DNA of 64,000 nucleotides from Nitrospinaceae bacterium (GTDB lineage: Bacteria; Nitrospinota; Nitrospinia; Nitrospinales; Nitrospinaceae). Position 1 is the stretch's first letter; each line of letters begins with the position of its first letter. Under the pieces are notes generated by a model that was given only the letters and a program-made list of their open reading frames with translations, had not been told where the DNA came from and made no database searches. Of this stretch, positions 2,963 to 10,132 are shown piece by piece. Both the position numbers and the translations under genes were made by a program. Where the stretch lies: assembly GCA_965237905.1 (NCBI GenBank), contig OZ250172.1, positions 2,816,001 through 2,880,000 of the forward strand. The letters run 5' to 3'.

Positions 2963-2994
2963 TGTTATAATGATTTGCAATAGGAGTGATTGCA
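2963..2994 (+). promoter_or_regulatory. Extended -10 promoter (TGnTATAAT) and TGCAAT-N7-ATTGCA inverted repeat around the SD of the TA operon
   Basis: TGTTATAAT at 2963-2971; TGCAAT 2976-2981 and ATTGCA 2989-2994 flank AGGAG. Confidence 0.6.
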
Positions 2995-2995
2995 T

Positions 2996-3241
2996 ATGAC
3001 TGAATCCAGTGGAAATGTCACCGTACGCCTGGCGGGAGAAACCCGCAAAAAACTCGACCATATAGCGACGGACCTCGACCGGTCCCGTAATTGGCTGATC
3101 AACGAGGCCATTGAAAACTATCTGGACGTGTACGAGTGGCAGGAACAAAAAATCCGCGAACGCCTCAAAAAATCCGAGAAAAAGGGAAAGTTCCGCACCG
3201 CGAAGCAGGTGAGCAAGGTCGTTGATTCCTTCAAGCCATGA
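2996..3241 (+). CDS. CopG/ribbon-helix-helix antitoxin
   Basis: VTVRL...KLDHIA...DRSRNWLINEAIENYL RHH pattern; SD AGGAG upstream; overlaps the toxin start (ATGA). Confidence 0.88.
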   Translation: MTESSGNVTVRLAGETRKKLDHIATDLDRSRNWLINEAIENYLDVYEWQEQKIRERLKKSEKKGKFRTAKQVSKVVDSFKP

Positions 3242-3525
3242 TGGACGTGGTCTGGCTTGAGGATGCGGTCAACGATCTGAAAATGATCGGTGATTACATC
3301 GCGGAAGAAAATAAAGAGGCCGCCTATCGGGTGTTGACCCAGATCCAGGCCGCGGCGGATTCCCTTGCGCGCCATCCGGAGATAGGGCGGCCCGGTCGGG
3401 TCGAAAAGACCCGCGAGCTGGTCATTTCCGGATTGCCCTACATCCTTCCCTACACCATCAAAAAGAACGAAGTCCGCATTTTGGCCGTACTGCACACCGC
3501 CCGCAAATGGCCGGGTGATTTCTAG
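3238..3525 (+). CDS. RelE/ParE family type II toxin
   Basis: 95 aa; A.DL..I.DYIA.EN..AA, HPEIGRPG, TRELV, V.ILAVLH. Confidence 0.92.
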   Translation: MMDVVWLEDAVNDLKMIGDYIAEENKEAAYRVLTQIQAAADSLARHPEIGRPGRVEKTRELVISGLPYILPYTIKKNEVRILAVLHTARKWPGDF

Positions 3526-3612: not shown

Positions 3613-4620
3613 TTAAGCTATTCCTGAACGCAACAGGTCGTGGAGGTGGATCATGCCGTCGATCTGTTTGCCGTCGTCGGACACGGCGATACAGGTGATG
3701 GAATACTCCTCCATAATCTGTAAAGCCTTGGTGGCCATATCGTCCTTCTGCACCGTCTTGGGATTGGCGGACATCAGATCGGTCGCTTTGATCGTGCCGA
3801 TGTCGCGCTTCGATTCCATCAACCGGCGCAGGTCGCCGTCGGTGATGACGCCCTTCATCTGCCCCTTGCCATTCACCACCAGCGTGGTACCCAGCCGCTT
3901 GCGGCTCATTTCCGTCAGCACCGCGTAGATATCGGCCGATTCCGGCACCGTGGGAATGGTGTCGCCGGCGTGCATCACATCGGCCACCGTGACCAGCAGT
4001 TTGCGTCCCAGGCTCCCGCCGGGGTGGTTGAGGGCGAAATCGTCCTCCTTGAAGCCGCGTTTTTCGAGTAACCCCATGGCCAGCGTATCGCCCATCGCCA
4101 TCGTCGCCGTGGTGCTGGCGGTGGGGACCAGGTTCAGCGCGCACGCCTCTTCCTTGACAGCGATGTTCAGCACATAATGCGCGCGCTTGGCGAGGGTGGA
4201 GTCCGGGTTGCCCGTCATCGCCACCAGCGTGCATTTGCGGCGGTTGATGACCGGCAGAAGCCGCACCATTTCCTCCGTCTCGCCGCTGTTGGAGATGGCG
4301 AGGATGATATCCTCCTTGCCGATAATGCCGAGGTCGCCGTGGCTGGCCTCCGCCGCATGGACGAACACCGCCGACAGGCCGATGCTGGAGAAAGTCGCGG
4401 CGATTTTCTGTCCGACGAGGCCCGACTTGCCGATGCCCAGCACCACCAGGTGGCCGGGGCAGTCGTCCAGCAGGGACACCACATCGACAAAGGTCGAGTC
4501 GATGCGGTCCATCAGGTCGGCGACCGATTCGCTTTCGATGCGCAACACGCGCTTGCCCGCCGCGATGATTTTCTGTTGCAGTTCCGGCGCCACCGGCGAG
4601 GATTTCTTCAAGGGTTGCAT
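3613..4620 (-). CDS. kdsD: Arabinose-5-phosphate isomerase (KpsF/GutQ family, SIS plus 2 CBS domains)
   Basis: GIGKSG, EASHGDLG, SNSGETEE, PTASTT, HPGGSLG, C-terminal CBS pair ending HLHDLL. Confidence 0.95.
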   Translation of the reverse strand: MQPLKKSSPVAPELQQKIIAAGKRVLRIESESVADLMDRIDSTFVDVVSLLDDCPGHLVVLGIGKSGLVGQKIAATFSSIGLSAVFVHAAEASHGDLGIIGKEDIILAISNSGETEEMVRLLPVINRRKCTLVAMTGNPDSTLAKRAHYVLNIAVKEEACALNLVPTASTTATMAMGDTLAMGLLEKRGFKEDDFALNHPGGSLGRKLLVTVADVMHAGDTIPTVPESADIYAVLTEMSRKRLGTTLVVNGKGQMKGVITDGDLRRLMESKRDIGTIKATDLMSANPKTVQKDDMATKALQIMEEYSITCIAVSDDGKQIDGMIHLHDLLRSGIA

Positions 4621-4689
4621 TTTTGCGGGAGGCCTTTGTTTCTAAACGGTTAAATCGTGCCTACGTTTTAAAAAGATTACCATACTTGC

Positions 4690-4787
4690 CCCCCGTTTGT
4701 CACCCTGAGCCTGTCGAAGGGCGACAAACGGGGGATTTGGGTCACCCTGAGCCGATTAGCCTGTCCTAAGCTTGCCGAAGGAAAGGG
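4690..4787. repeat. Cluster of nested REP-like elements (GTCACCCTGAGC...GTCGAAGGG family)
   Basis: Hairpin CCCCCGTTTGTC...GACAAACGGGGG at 4690-4734 encloses GTCACCCTGAGCCTGTCGAAGGG; a second copy at 4741 is interrupted by GCCTGTCCTAAGCTTGCCGAAGG. Confidence 0.75.
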
Positions 4788-4800
4788 AGACAAGAATGAA

Positions 4801-4832
4801 TTAACCACAGATAAACACAGATGGGCGCAGAT
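4801..4832 (+). repeat. Solo copy of the TTAACCACAGAT(A/G)AACACAGAT 10-bp-periodic repeat
   Basis: TTAACCACAGATAAACACAGATGGGCGCAGAT; matches 7220-7251 and the reverse complement of 7334-7365. Confidence 0.8.
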
Positions 4833-4932
4833 AATTGGATGGTCTCCCCATACCGAATCCGGTAAACTTTCAGAGTATTAGGAATGAAAGTCTCACTTTT
4901 TGGGGTGGATTAAAAGTATCATTTAGGTGTTA

Positions 4933-4962
4933 AGTGTTCGCTATCGACCCAAAGCGGACGTT
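4933..4962. repeat. Putative cassette recombination site 1 (GTTCGCTAT-CGACCC-AAAGCGGAC)
   Basis: Imperfect 9-bp inverted arms around a 6-bp asymmetric core; related sites at 5428-5471 and 6697-6726. Confidence 0.7.
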
Positions 4963-5025
4963 GGTGGGTTGCGAGGAATTGAAAGATATGCAGAATAGTT
5001 CCCTAATAAATTATGTGGCCAAGAC

Positions 5026-5427
5026 ATGAAAAGGAATATGAAAGTAGGTGATAAAGCTTCTTTGAGTAAGGTATTTACTGAGGAGATGGTTATCCAATAT
5101 TCTAAAATTTCAACGGATACCAACCCTATTCACTTGGACGAGAGCTATGCTTCGTCTACTATTTTTGGAAAGCGAATCGTGCATGGAATGTTGGTTGCCA
5201 GTATGTTCTCTGCGCTTATCGGGGTTGAGCTTCCTGGAAAGGGTTCCATATATTTAGGACAAAGTTTGAGTTTTAAAGCACCCGTTTCAATCGGGGATCA
5301 AGTAACGGCGTCAGTCGAAATAGTTGGAATCCGGGATGACAAGCCAATCATCACATTGCGTACTATTTGCATTAACAATGAAAGACAGGTGTTAATCGAG
5401 GGTGAGGCTGTCGTAAAGTATATGTGA
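5026..5427 (+). CDS. MaoC/PhaJ-like (R)-specific enoyl-CoA hydratase (hotdog fold)
   Basis: D.NPIHLD..YA....FG.RIVHGML, LPG.GSIYLGQSLSF.APV.IGD; start could be the ATG at 5038. Confidence 0.92.
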   Translation: MKRNMKVGDKASLSKVFTEEMVIQYSKISTDTNPIHLDESYASSTIFGKRIVHGMLVASMFSALIGVELPGKGSIYLGQSLSFKAPVSIGDQVTASVEIVGIRDDKPIITLRTICINNERQVLIEGEAVVKYM

Positions 5428-5471
5428 AACGACCGCTTTTGGCCGACTGCTGACGACCCAAAGCGGGCATT
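5428..5471. repeat. Putative cassette recombination site 2 (composite/double site)
   Basis: AAC-GACCGCTTT-TGGCCG-ACTGCTGAC overlapping CGACCC-AAAGCGGGC-ATT; begins immediately after the MaoC stop codon. Confidence 0.7.
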
Positions 5472-5486
5472 CTGGAAGAAGATCTA

Positions 5487-6638
5487 ATGACTCTGATATC
5501 TCAGTTTAAATACAAAAACACCGATGCGATTTTTATGTTTGCAGATGGCTTGATTTCATCCGACGCACCTGAAGAAGGGAACTTCATAATGCCAGGTGTA
5601 GGTCGCGTAGGACGCCCACAAACAATACACAAACTATATCTGCACTCCATGGAACAAAAACTAAATGTTCTGGGAAAGGACTTGGCGTACTCATATGCAG
5701 GATCGTACGACTTGGGTGCAAGGTTTGGTAACGATCTACATACGCTGTACACAGATCCTGAATTCAACTTCGAGAAGCTAGTGGAGTTTTGTGACTCATG
5801 GAGCGAGGCTCTTACTGACGAAGAGAAACATGAGGTCGCGCTCTTATGTACTTATCACGATGACGATGAGTACAGGACGTGGAACTATGAAATGAAGAAT
5901 GCTGATGGGTATAAGCATTACTCTCTGCTTCGTATTGAAGGTTCAGGGATTAAAAACTTCCAAAAAGTTGTGGACGAAGATAGCAACGTTATCGAAAACG
6001 ACGATCATGCTTTTGGTCATGCAATGAATTTGGTTAACAAGTTCTATCACGACGACCTTTTTGTACAGAGCAACTACAATCAATCGTTTGGAGGGTTTTA
6101 CGAGCTAGCCACATGCTCCCAAGAGGGAATAGAGAAAGTTACGGATATATTTGTCTCTACAATTCACATCGACGCACGACGCTTAGCCGATGGCTTCGCT
6201 ATTCCTATCACTTTTCTCAAACAGGATCATATCGATAACGTGACTGTATTACGCGATCTAAAGAAGGTTAACGAGTCGTTACCTGATGGCACTGACATGA
6301 GGGCCAGTGGACATATCTATTTACCGACAATCGATGCGTTTAAAGAAAAAGCGGTAGAAACTGCGCAGAAGATATTAAGCGAGGGTCAGTTTTATAACTC
6401 AGAGTTAATTGGTGACCTTAAAGCTAAACATACGCTGATTATGTTGGAGTTAGTCGATGAAACTCACGTACTCAAAATACCTCTCTACTATCGTAGAGCT
6501 AACCGCAATACGCCCATGGCTGTTACCAACGTAGATGGAGAGATTAGTATCTTTCTAGAAACTGAACTCTTACAAACGATCGAACGTAATATAGACACTC
6601 ATATTGATAGGGAAAACAAGTGTCTTCGTGATGCTTAA
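5487..6638 (+). CDS. Hypothetical protein, probable Ntn-hydrolase (proteasome beta/HslV-like) N-terminal domain with a C-terminal extension
   Basis: 383 aa, AT-rich codon usage; N-terminal M-T-L-I, FADG.IS, QKL, YAGS, IEGSG, SFGG motifs in proteasome-like order. Confidence 0.55.
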   Translation: MTLISQFKYKNTDAIFMFADGLISSDAPEEGNFIMPGVGRVGRPQTIHKLYLHSMEQKLNVLGKDLAYSYAGSYDLGARFGNDLHTLYTDPEFNFEKLVEFCDSWSEALTDEEKHEVALLCTYHDDDEYRTWNYEMKNADGYKHYSLLRIEGSGIKNFQKVVDEDSNVIENDDHAFGHAMNLVNKFYHDDLFVQSNYNQSFGGFYELATCSQEGIEKVTDIFVSTIHIDARRLADGFAIPITFLKQDHIDNVTVLRDLKKVNESLPDGTDMRASGHIYLPTIDAFKEKAVETAQKILSEGQFYNSELIGDLKAKHTLIMLELVDETHVLKIPLYYRRANRNTPMAVTNVDGEISIFLETELLQTIERNIDTHIDRENKCLRDA

Positions 6639-6696
6639 TAGATTGGGCACCAATTCTTCCAAAAAAGTGGAGGTACCTTTCCACCCACGAGGTACT

Positions 6697-6726
6697 AACG
6701 GCTGCTTCTGGCCGAAAGCTGCCCTC
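6697..6726. repeat. Putative cassette recombination site 3 (AAC-GGCTGCTTC-TGGCCG-AAAGCTGCC)
   Basis: Same arm/core architecture as sites 1 and 2; core TGGCCG identical to that of site 2. Confidence 0.7.
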
Positions 6727-6807
6727 AGTGGTGCGAAATCCCCAAATATCAATTCAGTACGAATTTGCCCTATTATGGTATAAATGTGATTTGCAGGAGG
6801 TAAGCCA

Positions 6808-7095
6808 ATGGGTATTAAAGAAGAGTATCAGAAGGAACTGCAGGAGCAGTTGGACGAGTGGGGCAAGGAGATCGACAAGCTCAAGGCCGTGGCCGGTAAG
6901 GCAAAGACCGGTTTACAAGGCGAGTATTACAAGGAGGTCGAGGACCTTCGATGCAAGCAGCTGGCGGCTCAGAAGAAACTGCATGAGCTCAAAGAAGCCA
7001 GCGGAGACGCCTGGGAAGACCTCAAGGAAGGTGTCGAAGGGGCGTGGGATTCTCTTAGCACGGGGGTGAAAAAGGCCGCTTCCCGTTTCAAGTAG
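6808..7095 (+). CDS. Small coiled-coil protein (sll1863-like stress-response family)
   Basis: 95 aa; LDEW..EIDKLKA, KL.ELKEASGDAWEDLKEGVE.AW; SD AGGAGG upstream. Confidence 0.8.
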   Translation: MGIKEEYQKELQEQLDEWGKEIDKLKAVAGKAKTGLQGEYYKEVEDLRCKQLAAQKKLHELKEASGDAWEDLKEGVEGAWDSLSTGVKKAASRFK

Positions 7096-7219
7096 CCGGC
7101 CCTCTAGCGAGGGAGGCAGCTGGCTTACCGTTGACTGCAAGCGATGTATCTTGGGGCGCAATTGAAAGACAGGCCCGGGCGGAGTACCTCCGCTGGTTAC
7201 ATGAACTCCACAACCCAAA

Positions 7220-7365
7220 TTAACCACAGATGAACACAGATAAACACCGATGAACCCAAAGGTTGTTGCCTTGAACCAAAACCCCACCCCACCTATATCC
7301 TCCCCTCTGTAAGGGGAGGATCATTAAGCCCTTATCCGTGTCCATCTGTGTTCATCTGTGGTTAA
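7220..7365. mobile_element. MITE-like element with 32-bp terminal inverted repeats built of 10-bp subrepeats
   Basis: 7220-7251 TTAACCACAGATGAACACAGATAAACACCGAT versus the reverse complement of 7334-7365 TTAACCACAGATGAACACAGATGGACACGGAT (29/32); internal hairpin TCCTCCCCT-CTGTA-AGGGGAGGA. Confidence 0.6.
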
Positions 7366-7378
7366 ACCCTTTGTGTTC

Positions 7379-7402
7379 CCTTCGACCTTGCTCAGGGCAG
7401 GC
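7379..7402 (-). repeat. REP-like element GCCTGCCCTGAGCAAGGTCGAAGG inserted into a further GTGTTC^A.CTGTGGTTAAA repeat copy
   Basis: Removing 7379-7402 restores TGTGTTCACCTGTGGTTAAA, nearly identical to 7347-7366. Confidence 0.7.
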
Positions 7403-7426
7403 ACCTGTGGTTAAATCCTTCCTGTT

Positions 7427-10132
7427 ATGGCTAAGAAACCGACACTTTATCTGATTGACGGGTCGTCGTATATCTTCCGGGCGTTTTACGGCATCCGGCA
7501 GTTCCTGTCCAATTCCAAAGGGCTCCCCACCAACGCGCTGTACGGTTTCACCACCATGCTCTCCAAGGTGGTGCGCGACGAGCAACCGGACTACCTGGCC
7601 GTGGTGTTCGACTCCAAAGCCAAAACCTTCCGCCACGAGATGTATTCCGACTACAAGGCCAACCGCGACACCCCGCCGGAAGAACTCGCCGAACAGTTCC
7701 CCTATTTCGAACCGTTGGTGGAGGCGTTCAATATCGTCAGCCTGCGGCAGGACGGGTTCGAGGCCGACGACATCATCGGTACCCTCGCGAAGATGGGCGA
7801 GCAGGCGAAGATGGCAGTGACCATCGTTTCCGGCGACAAGGACATGATGCAGTTGATCTCCCCGCACGTCCACATGCTCGACACGATGAAGGACAAACGC
7901 TTCGAGAAAGCGGAGGTGATCGACAAGTTCGGCGTGCCGCCGGAGAAGGTGATCGAGGTGATGGGCCTGATGGGCGACTCCAGCGACCACATCCCCGGCG
8001 TGAAGGGGGTGGGACCGAAAACGGCGACGGAGCTGATCCAGAAATACGGCTCCATTGAAAAGCTGTATAAGAATATAGAAGACATCGACAAGCAGAAGCT
8101 GAAGGACAAACTGGAGACGGACAAGGAGAACGCCCTGCTCAGCCGCCAACTGGTGACCATCGATACCGAAATGAAACTCGACTGTAAAGTCGAAGACCTC
8201 AAGATGCGCGAACCCGACACCGACAAACTGCGCTCGATGTTTACTGAGCTTGGATTTAAGTCGCTCCTTGAAAATTTACCAGCGGGCGAGGGCACCGCCG
8301 GTGTGCCACCGGTATCAGATTTTTCCAAGATAGAGTCTAATTATCAAACCATATTAGATGAGCAATCGTTGGAGTCGTTATTAAAATTCCTTAAAAAATC
8401 TAAAAAATTCGCGCTCGACTTGGAAACGACGAGCAAGCATCCGACCCGCGCGGAGATGGTGGGCATCTCGTTTTCGTGGGCAGAGGGCGAGGCGTGCTAC
8501 ATCCCGGTGAGCCACCGTTACCTGGGCGTGCCGGAGCAGTTGGACAAGCAGAAGGTGATTGAAGCCCTAAAACCTCTTCTGCAAGATGGAAAACTTAAAA
8601 AGTTCGGACACAACATAAAGTACGATCTCATCGTGCTCGCCAACGAGGGTGTGGCGCTTAAGGGCGTCGCGTTCGATTCCATGCTGGCGTCGTATGTGCT
8701 GGACCCGTCGAAGCGGCAACACGGCCTCGACGATCTGGCAATGGAGTTGCTGGGGCATCAGAACATCACTTTTAAAGACGTGGCGGGGAAGGGGGCCAAG
8801 CAGATCGGCTTCGACGAGGTGGCCATCGACGTGGCGGCCGAGTACGCGGCGGAGGACAGCGACATCACCTTCCGTTTGACGCATGCGTTGCGGCCGCGCC
8901 TCAGGGACGAGACTTTAAAATTGTATGAAGAGCTGGAGTTGCCGCTGATCGATGTGCTGGCGGATATGGAGATGACCGGCGTGCGGGTTGACCGCGAGCA
9001 TCTCAAAAAAATGTCGAGTAAGTTGACCAAGGCCTTAAAGAAACATGAGGACGAAATTTATGCGATGGCGGGGGAGCCGTTCAATATCAACTCGCCGAAG
9101 CAGTTGGGAGTGATCCTGTTCGAGAAGATGGGATTGACGGCGAAGAAAAAAACCAAGACCGGGTTCTCGACCGACATGAGCGTGATGGAGGAGTTGGCGG
9201 ACGAGCACGAACTGCCGGCGATGATCGTTAACTTCCGCCAGTTGTCAAAATTGAAGTCGACTTACATTGACGCACTGCCGCTGGAGATCAATCAGAAGAC
9301 CGGGCGGGTTCATACGTCGTACAACCAGACGGTCGCCGCGACGGGACGGTTGAGCAGTAGCGATCCAAACTTGCAGAATATTCCGATCCGCTCCGACCTC
9401 GGCAAGGAAATCCGTCAGGCGTTTGTCGCGGATAAAGACGGCTGGTTGTTGTCGGCGGACTATTCGCAGATCGAGTTGCGTATTCTCGCGCATTTGTCGG
9501 GCGATCCGGCATTGATCCAGGCGTTCAAGAAGGGGGAGGACATTCACACACGCACGGCGGCGGAGATATTCGGTCAGCCGTTGGACGGGGTGGACGAGGA
9601 CGGGCGGCGCATGGCCAAGGCGGTGAACTTCGGCATCGTGTACGGGTTGAGTGCATTTGGATTATCGCGGCAGTTAAAGATAAGTCCGGGTGAGGCGAAG
9701 GCATTCATCGACCAGTATTTCGATCTGTACAAGAACGTGAAGACCTTCATGGAGAGCACCATCGAAGAAGCGCGGCAGTGCGGGTACACCATGACGATGA
9801 TGAACCGGCGGCGCTACCTGCCTGACCTGCACAGCAAGAACCGGCAGGTGCGGGAGTCGACGGAGCGGGTGGCGATCAATTCGCCGGTGCAGGGCAGTGC
9901 GGCGGACATGATCAAGCTGGCGATGATCCGTTTGCATCACAAGCTGGCGCAGTTGAAGCTGAAGTCGAAGATGATCATGCAGGTGCACGACGAGTTGGTG
10001 TTCGAGTGTCCGGCGAAAGAGAAGAAGGACGTCGAAGCGCTGGTCAAAAAAGAAATGGAAGGCGTGTGGCCGATGCAGGTTCCGGTGGTGGTGCATCTGA
10101 ACTGGGGCAAGAACTGGAACGAGGCGCATTAA
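7427..10132 (+). CDS. polA: DNA polymerase I
   Basis: 901 aa; 5'-3' exonuclease (LIDGSS, EADD), 3'-5' exonuclease (DLETT, HNIKYD, YAAED), polymerase motifs DYSQIELR, R..AK.VNFG..YG, QVHDE. Confidence 0.99.
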   Translation: MAKKPTLYLIDGSSYIFRAFYGIRQFLSNSKGLPTNALYGFTTMLSKVVRDEQPDYLAVVFDSKAKTFRHEMYSDYKANRDTPPEELAEQFPYFEPLVEAFNIVSLRQDGFEADDIIGTLAKMGEQAKMAVTIVSGDKDMMQLISPHVHMLDTMKDKRFEKAEVIDKFGVPPEKVIEVMGLMGDSSDHIPGVKGVGPKTATELIQKYGSIEKLYKNIEDIDKQKLKDKLETDKENALLSRQLVTIDTEMKLDCKVEDLKMREPDTDKLRSMFTELGFKSLLENLPAGEGTAGVPPVSDFSKIESNYQTILDEQSLESLLKFLKKSKKFALDLETTSKHPTRAEMVGISFSWAEGEACYIPVSHRYLGVPEQLDKQKVIEALKPLLQDGKLKKFGHNIKYDLIVLANEGVALKGVAFDSMLASYVLDPSKRQHGLDDLAMELLGHQNITFKDVAGKGAKQIGFDEVAIDVAAEYAAEDSDITFRLTHALRPRLRDETLKLYEELELPLIDVLADMEMTGVRVDREHLKKMSSKLTKALKKHEDEIYAMAGEPFNINSPKQLGVILFEKMGLTAKKKTKTGFSTDMSVMEELADEHELPAMIVNFRQLSKLKSTYIDALPLEINQKTGRVHTSYNQTVAATGRLSSSDPNLQNIPIRSDLGKEIRQAFVADKDGWLLSADYSQIELRILAHLSGDPALIQAFKKGEDIHTRTAAEIFGQPLDGVDEDGRRMAKAVNFGIVYGLSAFGLSRQLKISPGEAKAFIDQYFDLYKNVKTFMESTIEEARQCGYTMTMMNRRRYLPDLHSKNRQVRESTERVAINSPVQGSAADMIKLAMIRLHHKLAQLKLKSKMIMQVHDELVFECPAKEKKDVEALVKKEMEGVWPMQVPVVVHLNWGKNWNEAH

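What the first reader, a model, noticed from the sequence alone, without database searches (positions are those of the whole stretch)
4933..7095. Integron-like gene-cassette array punctuated by non-attC palindromic sites (9-bp arms, 6-bp asymmetric core)
Seen in the sequence: three unrelated, co-oriented genes (MaoC hydratase, 383-aa Ntn-like protein, 95-aa coiled coil), the first two clearly AT-richer than kdsD and polA. Each is preceded by a related site: GTTCGCTAT-CGACCC-AAAGCGGAC-GTT (4936-4962), AAC-GACCGCTTT-TGGCCG-ACTGCTGAC/CGACCC-AAAGCGGGC-ATT (5428-5471) and AAC-GGCTGCTTC-TGGCCG-AAAGCTGCC (6697-6723). The approximate consensus is AAY-GNYNGCTWY-YGRCCS-AAAGCKGVC. Site 2 begins at the base after the MaoC stop codon, as attC sites often do. 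Established: inverted arms around a 6-8 bp asymmetric spacer is the architecture of tyrosine-recombinase core sites (dif, lox); these sites lack the RYYYAAC...GTTRRRY attC ends and the dif consensus. Inference: a distinct cassette-capture system served by a recombinase acting in trans, since no recombinase is encoded in this window.
Basis: partly seen in the sequence, partly recalled or inferred. Interest (0 to 1): 0.88.

Follow-up and report, generated by a model that had tools for sequence, protein, structure and literature searches.

The report
Two-core recombinase sites bounding swappable genes
Two foreign genes here are each bracketed by short DNA sites that elsewhere flank a tiny recombination enzyme, which points to a gene-swapping system that is neither an integron nor any other system I found described, although the enzyme itself is missing from this genome.

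Summary
The sites are real. They are four half-sites of two core types, CGACCC (A) and TGGCCG (B). MaoC and the 383-aa proteasome-beta-fold gene each sit in an A...B module. The 95-aa gene lies outside the last site and is not cargo. The family has about 20 copies in this genome and occurs in 54 of 120 genomes of the phylum. Sites that share only one flank always carry the same core type (0 of 21 pairs A x B). The MaoC module moves with breakpoints at its cores. The same two cores bracket a 208-aa catalytic-domain-only tyrosine recombinase at fixed distances, in a 725-771 bp unit. The 47 bp left of site 1 are that unit's leader, cut at the ribosome-binding site; the gene is absent from this genome. 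Best reading: pdif-like module exchange at matched cores, driven by a rarely resident recombinase. Activity is inferred, not shown. Not attC, not dif. Nine literature searches found no description. This scan had already reported the same system on other DNA (e1-755577, e1-5128486, e1-5234108 and others).

The parts
4898..4944 (-). Relic of the A end (leader) of the small-recombinase unit, cut where the Shine-Dalgarno begins; includes the outer arm of site 1; no coding remnant
   Evidence: 84.6% over 65 bp (4898-4962) to L055, E 2e-13, the only match in G000 to four recombinase units; local score 70 vs shuffle maximum 31, while 4800-4897 scores at shuffle level; alignment
4933..4962 (+). Site 1, type A: outer arm GTTCGCTAT, core CGACCC (4945-4950), conserved inner arm AAAGCGGAC-GTT
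   Evidence: MaoC module identity to G002 starts at this core; contigs of three studies start at 4939-4948
4945..5445 (+). Module 1 (A core to B core) carrying MaoC
   Evidence: 91% identical copy at another locus in G002, with unrelated DNA outside both cores
5026..5427 (+). MaoC-like dehydratase, 133 aa, GC 0.41
   Evidence: PF01575 E 7e-22
5428..5457 (+). Site 2a, type B: inner arm AAC-GACCGCTTT, core TGGCCG (5440-5445)
5446..5453 (.). 8-bp B-to-A junction ACTGCTGA in which the two outer arms overlap; near-identical 8-bp junctions in G001, G002 and G098 join other genes
5442..5471 (+). Site 2b, type A: core CGACCC (5454-5459), inner arm AAAGCGGGC-ATT
5487..6638 (+). 383-aa protein, N-terminal proteasome-beta/Ntn-hydrolase fold, Thr after the start Met; cargo of module 2 (5454-6714); rare family, no Pfam, NCBIfam or PADLOC match
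   Evidence: found in 2 of 120 phylum genomes
6697..6726 (+). Site 3, type B: inner arm AAC-GGCTGCTTC, core TGGCCG (6709-6714), right arm AAAGCTGCC kept at this locus in G001 and G008 (resident dock)
6722..6745 (+). Copy of a host intergenic repeat family fused to the right arm of site 3
   Evidence: 7 copies in G000 with up to 2 mismatches
6808..7095 (+). sll1863-family 95-aa gene, outside the last site; resident neighbour of polA in the genus, not cargo
   Evidence: NF052504 E 3e-31; 94% identical in G001 behind the same site arm; GC 0.545
3613..4620 (-). kdsD (SIS-CBS), conserved left flank
7427..10132 (+). polA, conserved right flank

Best explanation
The sites are double-stranded recombination sites (12-bp arms, 6-bp core) of a small tyrosine recombinase family of about 205 aa with a catalytic domain only and an N-terminal PWNKG motif. 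SHOWN by comparison: there are two fixed cores. Cargo modules run A...B with the conserved arms inside. They alternate with 'outer' segments running B...A, which are either a 4-60 bp junction, longer resident DNA, or the 725-771 bp unit that encodes the recombinase. Flanks change at the core, and only between like cores. INFERRED: the enzyme recombines A with A and B with B. One crossover integrates or excises a circle (here 509 bp between 4945 and 5454, or 1269 bp between 5440 and 6709). Two crossovers replace one module with another between resident docks, a natural counterpart of recombinase-mediated cassette exchange and of pdif module replacement through a cointegrate. INFERRED: the enzyme is usually a visitor. 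This array kept only the leader of its own recombinase unit and is frozen until such a unit arrives again.
For: Association: 44 of 84 recombinase loci from metagenome and viral contigs carry a site above 16 bits (76 hits; 1.7 per resampled set). In 78 loci with enough flank, exact CGACCC lies 70-140 nt upstream in 32 (CGGCCA there in 4), and exact CGGCCA lies 25-60 nt downstream in 42 (CGACCC in 0). Half-sites point away from the gene in 36 of 78 upstream (0 inward) and 34 of 78 downstream (4 inward). Controls: 5 of 5 phylum hits of this family have a site; 0 of 30 XerC/D loci, 1 of 20 other tyrosine-recombinase loci and 0 of 5 weak hits do. Catalytic R59, K87, H156, R159, H182, Y191 are present. 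Relic leader at 4898-4944. Grammar: convergent neighbours are A/B in 30 of 36 and divergent in 21 of 27, and 8 of 10 and 6 of 7 in loci fetched later. Among 137 distinct sites, 21 pairs share one flank only; none pairs A with B and 17 have identical cores. MaoC module at another locus. Same outer flanks with 2.7 kb vs 6.8 kb of different cargo at the proS locus in G000 and G002. kdsD-polA gap is 82 bp in G011 and G015 and holds other genes in G001.
Against: No activity was tested. The recombinase is absent from G000 and from all 20 other genomes of its family, and only 2 of 120 phylum genomes hold an intact copy while 54 hold sites. 40 of 84 recombinase loci, and 3 of 4 plasmid loci, have no site above 16 bits, although weaker cores are visible beside the plasmid genes. 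No joint at the sites appears in contigs of run X22, which hold the stretch itself (contigs drop rare forms). A 70% MaoC homolog in G011 and two pieces of 383-aa homologs in G016 have no sites. The largest ORF runs A to B in only 20 of 30 modules. How a protein without a core-binding domain holds a 12-bp arm is unexplained, and its model is weak at the N-terminus (pLDDT 64; residues 1-22 below 50). Genomes and site pairs are not independent, and some loci were picked by the junction pattern.
Confidence: 0.62

Rival explanations
1. Same enzyme and sites, but no exchange system: the 740-bp unit is a selfish element that inserts and decays repeatedly, and the modules are by-products left between its footprints.
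For: The unit is a compact element with its own ends; relic ends and a 30-bp junction made of both unit ends exist; most site-bearing genomes lack the gene.
Against: The best-conserved arm travels with the cargo, not with the unit; the same 8-bp junction joins unrelated genes in four genomes; orthologous docks have swapped whole cargo blocks.
Confidence: 0.2
2. Host XerC/XerD, or another resident recombinase such as the 202-aa tyrosine recombinase or the large serine recombinase of G000, act on the sites, and the small recombinase is only a passenger.
Against: The genome's dif-like site (GGTTCCCATAA CATATA TTATGTCAACT, position 124583, near the GC-skew maximum) shares nothing with the arms; genomes with XerC/D and no exact pattern match are common; no sites lie beside the other G000 recombinases; 140 ORFs next to sites include 2 PWNKG recombinases, 1 phage-type integrase, 1 rve transposase and no Resolvase match.
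Confidence: 0.08
3. Core plus inner arm are the terminal inverted repeats of non-autonomous transposons (mobile insertion cassettes) moved by a DDE transposase.
For: Each module ends in 18-19 bp inverted repeats (84% complementary).
Against: Sites that share only the outer flank also keep the core and a conserved outer arm; the two ends carry fixed different cores; no transposase is recurrently associated.
Confidence: 0.05
4. Atypical attC sites recombined as single-stranded hairpins by an integron integrase.
For: Site 2 abuts a stop codon and folds (z -3.1 bottom strand).
Against: Sites 1 and 3 do not fold better than shuffles (z 0.0 to -0.8); no RYYYAAC...GTTRRRY pair in 4600-7400; no IntI over the cut-off in G000; sites are 30 bp and occur in both orientations at about 8 loci.
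Confidence: 0.03
5. Operators of a transcription factor, or a REP-like repeat.
For: Palindromic and intergenic: 23 of 26 lie outside long ORFs.
Against: Sites lie both before and after genes, mark homology breakpoints to the base and obey the A/B grammar.
Confidence: 0.02

Closest known systems
pdif (dif) modules of Acinetobacter plasmids, recombined by XerC/XerD (PMC13141974, passages read)
   Same: Asymmetric sites with a 6-bp spacer; genes bounded by inversely oriented sites; two module types that alternate; crossover needs matching spacers; single modules are replaced through two crossovers, pairs are excised together.
   Different: Arms unrelated to dif; only two spacer types across many taxa instead of many; chromosomal docks at several loci; a dedicated small recombinase that is itself encoded on one module type; that paper calls the dif module system unique to Acinetobacter.
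Integrons and CALINs (IntI, attI, attC) (definition recalled; search listings only)
   Same: Arrays of unrelated, mostly AT-rich accessory genes separated by recombination sites; often no enzyme nearby.
   Different: No attC ends or hairpin; two cores and inverted sites; multi-gene and oppositely oriented cargo; enzyme lacks the integron-integrase signature (TIGR02249 21 bits vs cut-off 265).
Recombinase-mediated cassette exchange with heterospecific lox or FRT sites (engineered; recalled, abstracts)
   Same: One recombinase, two incompatible spacers flanking an exchangeable segment.
   Different: RMCE is a laboratory tool; here the layout is natural and the exchange is inferred.
FimB/FimE-type tyrosine invertases (catalytic domain only; recalled)
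   Same: About 200 aa with no core-binding domain; weak match to NF007371 (21 bits vs cut-off 222).
   Different: Fim enzymes invert a promoter between identical repeats; here the inverted ends carry different cores.
Tn6212 'XerC transposon' of Pseudomonas syringae ICEs (PMC3583860, PMC10945833, bioRxiv 2023.04.24.538000; passages read)
   Same: Cargo blocks bounded by short repeats and linked to a tyrosine recombinase.
   Different: Its 14-bp direct repeat as printed (AAATACGTTATCAC) is unrelated to these sites.

Membership tests
Integron / CALIN | attC ends RYYYAAC ... GTTRRRY, 55-141 bp | tested here: not met
   No such pair in 4600-7400; sites are 30 or 44 bp
Integron / CALIN | Bottom-strand hairpin at every site | tested here: not met
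   Only double site 2 folds (z -3.1); sites 1 and 3 z 0.0 and -0.8
Integron / CALIN | IntI integrase in the genome or family match of the candidate | tested here: not met
   0 of 5 matches over the TIGR02249 cut-off in G000; candidate 21 bits vs 265
Integron / CALIN | IntegronFinder attC covariance-model hit | not testable with these tools
   Model not available; Rfam scan of 4500-7500 gave only two chance hits
pdif / dif module | XerC and XerD arms (TTATGTTAAAT-type) | tested here: not met
   Arms AAAGCGGAC-RTT vs pdif table and host dif-like site
pdif / dif module | 6-bp spacer, inversely oriented sites, alternating module types | tested here: met
pdif / dif module | Exchange between sites with matching spacers | tested here: met
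   By comparison only: 0 of 21 one-sided pairs are A x B
pdif / dif module | Dependence on XerC/XerD | not testable with these tools
   Needs an experiment; sequence evidence points elsewhere
Tyrosine recombinase (candidate enzyme, outside the window) | Catalytic R-K-H-R-H-Y | tested here: met
   PF00589 E 2e-19; alignment; XerH/XerD sequence matches
Tyrosine recombinase (candidate enzyme, outside the window) | Core-binding domain, as in Xer, IntI and the 'simple' subgroups | tested here: not met
   208 aa; catalytic match starts at residue 35-41
Tyrosine recombinase (candidate enzyme, outside the window) | Recombination of the A and B sites | not testable with these tools
   Association only
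Non-autonomous DDE transposon (MITE / mobile insertion cassette) | Target-site duplication outside the terminal repeats | tested here: inconclusive
   No true empty/filled pair for either module; flanks outside the cores are conserved arms rather than duplications
Ntn hydrolase, proteasome-beta fold (383-aa cargo) | Fold with N-terminal Thr nucleophile | tested here: met
   protease activity not tested

The most novel reading that the evidence does not exclude
A third natural gene-module system beside integrons and pdif modules, spread across bacterial phyla: one catalytic-domain-only tyrosine recombinase and two fixed, mutually incompatible 6-bp cores carry out cassette exchange at chromosomal docks. 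The enzyme travels as a 740-bp module and acts hit-and-run, so genomes that lack it still share one pool of modules.
Probability: 0.5. Interest if true: 0.88.

Novelty: new variant of a known kind. Interest (0 to 1): 0.72.

Why it matters
Current integron and pdif scanners would miss this route of gene flow, yet exact sites occur in 54 of 120 genomes of this phylum, and the recombinase family has matches on 355 plasmid records. If activity is confirmed, a 208-aa enzyme with two orthogonal 30-bp sites is a compact natural cassette-exchange tool. It would also test directly how a tyrosine recombinase without a core-binding domain recognises DNA. The sites mark accessory genes of unknown function, such as the proteasome-beta-fold protein here, for study.

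Tried and rejected
Rfam scan: nothing. Exact B-A junction pattern in the species-genome collection gave only 3 loci; it was too strict. Exact A half-site in viral contigs: 3 loci. The 383-aa gene was not found on plasmids, and its relatives came without context, so its module was not seen at a second locus. A viral-contig search with its alignment could not be run for lack of conserved stretches. No PADLOC support for a defence role. A control scan with the 202-aa recombinase of G000 found no relatives in viral contigs; it has no sites nearby. No coding relic of the recombinase left of 4898, although the multiple alignment suggested one. Tn6212 rejected on its printed repeat. Serine recombinase as mover: no Resolvase match among 140 site-adjacent ORFs, and one unlinked gene in G000; earlier notes that name one may concern other site families. 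No excision joint in contigs of X22; contigs cannot show absence. Literature searches for the motif, PWNKG and the concept (one search was for pdif) found no description. The library lacks most subscription papers, and I did not see the supplements of PMC8138268, whose datasets might classify this family.
Full report
1. The observation. Read closely they are four half-sites with two cores: A (CGACCC) at 4945 and 5454, and B (TGGCCG) at 5440 and 6709. A well-conserved arm (AAAGCGGAC-RTT) always faces the gene, and the other arm varies. The order is A-MaoC-B-(8 bp)-A-383 aa-B-95 aa. MaoC and the 383-aa gene have GC 0.41 and 0.42; the 95-aa gene has 0.545, kdsD 0.62 and polA 0.56. No tyrosine or serine recombinase family match lies in the window. 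Rfam gives only two chance hits.

2. A dispersed family. An iterated matrix finds 21 hits in the genome, in about eight clusters. A half-site matrix gives 26 above 17 bits, against 5 and 6 in Markov-2 controls; 23 of the 26 lie outside ATG-started ORFs of 150 aa or more, which cover 82% of the genome (matrix trained on these sites). The fixed pattern CGRCCMWWAGCGGAC matches 22 of 31 relatives and 54 of 120 phylum genomes, up to 23 times in one genome, while the reversed control gives 0-2.

3. Grammar. Across G000 and 29 loci, neighbouring sites that face each other are A/B in 30 of 36 cases (1 A/A, 5 with an ambiguous core). Sites that face apart are A/B in 21 of 27 (6 ambiguous). Same-direction neighbours are A/A or B/B in 22 of 29. 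Caveats: L049-L051 were selected by a B-A pattern, L145, L146 and L148 by likeness to site 2, and L043/L150 overlap. In seven loci fetched afterwards the counts are 8 of 10 and 6 of 7; one divergent pair repeats L049, leaving 5 of 6. B-to-A junctions range from 4 bp to hundreds of bp, and the window's 8-bp form recurs in three other genomes. The largest ORF runs from A to B in 20 of 30 modules, so orientation is biased, not fixed.

4. Modules move, and flanks change at the core. G002 has the MaoC module (91% identical) at another locus; identity starts at the A core and ends at the B core. Contigs of runs X1, X3 and X5 (three studies) carry it starting at 4939-4948 with other DNA before it; in X1 and X3 a site-3-like B site precedes it by 22 letters, and in X5 its B core is followed by a longer junction. 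At the proS locus, G000 and G002 keep both outer flanks but hold 2.7 kb and 6.8 kb of different cargo. Among 137 distinct sites, 8 pairs share only the inner flank and 13 only the outer flank. None of the 21 pairs A with B, 17 have identical cores, and core identity is 0.96 in both sets. About 9 mixed pairs would be expected from the 67 A, 58 B and 12 other sites (my arithmetic; pairs are not independent). At this locus kdsD and polA are 82 bp apart in G011 and G015 and 344 bp in G014. G001 keeps the B core, its right arm and the 95-aa gene but has other genes upstream; G008 keeps the same arm. So the 95-aa sll1863-family gene is resident, not cargo. Against generality: a 70% MaoC homolog in G011 and two pieces of 383-aa homologs in G016 have no sites, and the 383-aa module was not seen at a second locus.

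5. The candidate enzyme. A 208-aa one turned up beside a B site in G019. It matches PF00589, keeps R-K-H-R-H-Y, has no core-binding domain, and falls far below the XerC, XerD and IntI cut-offs. Its model is modest (pLDDT 64). Of 84 loci of relatives (the best 80 of 518 metagenome hits, and 4 full-length of 8 viral loci), 44 carry a site above 16 bits. Position is fixed: in 78 distinct loci with enough flank, CGACCC lies 70-140 nt upstream of the PWNKG motif in 32 (CGGCCA in 4), CGGCCA lies 25-60 nt after the gene in 42 (CGACCC in 0), and both in 25, giving units of 725-771 bp (orientation test). The unit is therefore a B...A 'outer' segment, the same slot as the 8-bp junction. All 5 phylum hits have a site nearby; 0 of 30 XerC/D loci, 1 of 20 other recombinase loci and 0 of 5 weak hits do; 1 of 4 plasmid loci passes the threshold, with weaker cores visible in the others. 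Among 140 ORFs within 350 bp of a site, the mobility genes are two of these recombinases, one phage-type integrase and one rve transposase.

6. What is special here. G000 lacks the gene; only 2 of 120 phylum genomes have it intact and 3 more hits are partial. But 4898-4962 matches the A end of a recombinase unit at 84.6% over 65 bp, the only such match in the 3.09-Mb genome. The match stops where the Shine-Dalgarno begins, and nothing further left aligns above shuffles. Site 1 is thus the former end of a recombinase unit, which ties this array to the enzyme directly.

7. Mechanism. Shown: two cores, alternation, breakpoints at like cores, fixed bracketing of the recombinase, the relic. From established knowledge: tyrosine recombinases need spacer identity, and pdif modules are excised in pairs or replaced singly through a cointegrate between sites with matching spacers (PMC13141974, passages). 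Inferred: A x A and B x B crossovers by the small enzyme integrate or excise circles (509 and 1269 bp here) or swap single modules between docks, and the enzyme usually acts in passing. The main rival keeps the same enzyme but treats modules as by-products of a selfish unit (0.2). XerC/D is unlikely because the host dif-like site at 124583 is unrelated. attC is excluded by ends, folding and the lack of IntI.

8. Cargo. The 383-aa protein has few relatives (4 and 22 hits), a confident model and a proteasome-beta-like N-terminal domain with conserved Thr2, Asp20, Lys58 and Gly-Ser-Gly. Its function is untested, and PADLOC gives no support for defence.

9. Known systems and novelty. It works like pdif modules and like engineered cassette exchange, but fails membership of pdif (arms) and integrons (attC, IntI). 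PMC8138268 (passages) names no catalytic-domain-only subgroup in what I read; its supplements were not seen. Tn6212 has an unrelated repeat (passages). Nine searches of open PMC and bioRxiv found no description. This scan has reported the same system on other DNA several times; those notes are not independent support, and every count above was made here. Verdict: real feature, new variant of a known kind, interest 0.72.

Noticed in passing
G000 559212/561991, 245089, 246552, 247605, 248198, 663008, 848078, 1360317: Many other sites in this genome have IS-like inverted ends (GTGTCTCAGTT...) just outside the outer arm, in places with imperfect flanking repeats of about 16-19 bp. This may be a miniature element that carries an A/B dock to new loci. 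No autonomous copy was seen. The window's sites lack these ends.
   Followed up: partly
window 2990-3525 (+): RHH-ParE toxin-antitoxin pair between alaS and kdsD; present in G004, absent from the same interval in G001 and G007.
   Followed up: partly
window 4690-4834 and 7096-7426: Several families of host intergenic repeats with many genomic copies bracket the island on both sides.
   Followed up: no
G000 2666754-2669713: Three genes that look by eye like a patatin, a nucleotidyltransferase and an E2-like protein (CBASS-like; recalled, not tested) lie directly beside the site cluster at 2670 kb.
   Followed up: no
G000 2658094-2658702: A second catalytic-domain-only tyrosine recombinase (202 aa, 24-27% identical to the candidate) with no A/B sites beside it.
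   Followed up: partly
G000 124583: dif-like site near the cumulative GC-skew maximum (116487).
   Followed up: yes
L030 (G008, upstream of polA) vs G000 848-849 kb: An aldo-keto reductase gene 91% identical in the two genomes sits at different site-bearing loci. In G008 it lies between two copies of the site-3 right arm, the second without the B core.
   Followed up: partly
L151 (G008:C5): The same recombinase-leader relic plus about 60 bp of the same unexplained DNA (80% over 109 bp) precedes an A site at a different locus, beside a umuC-like gene.
   Followed up: partly
L021 11371-11420 (G001): A second, truncated start of the sll1863-family gene inside the variable kdsD-polA interval.
   Followed up: no
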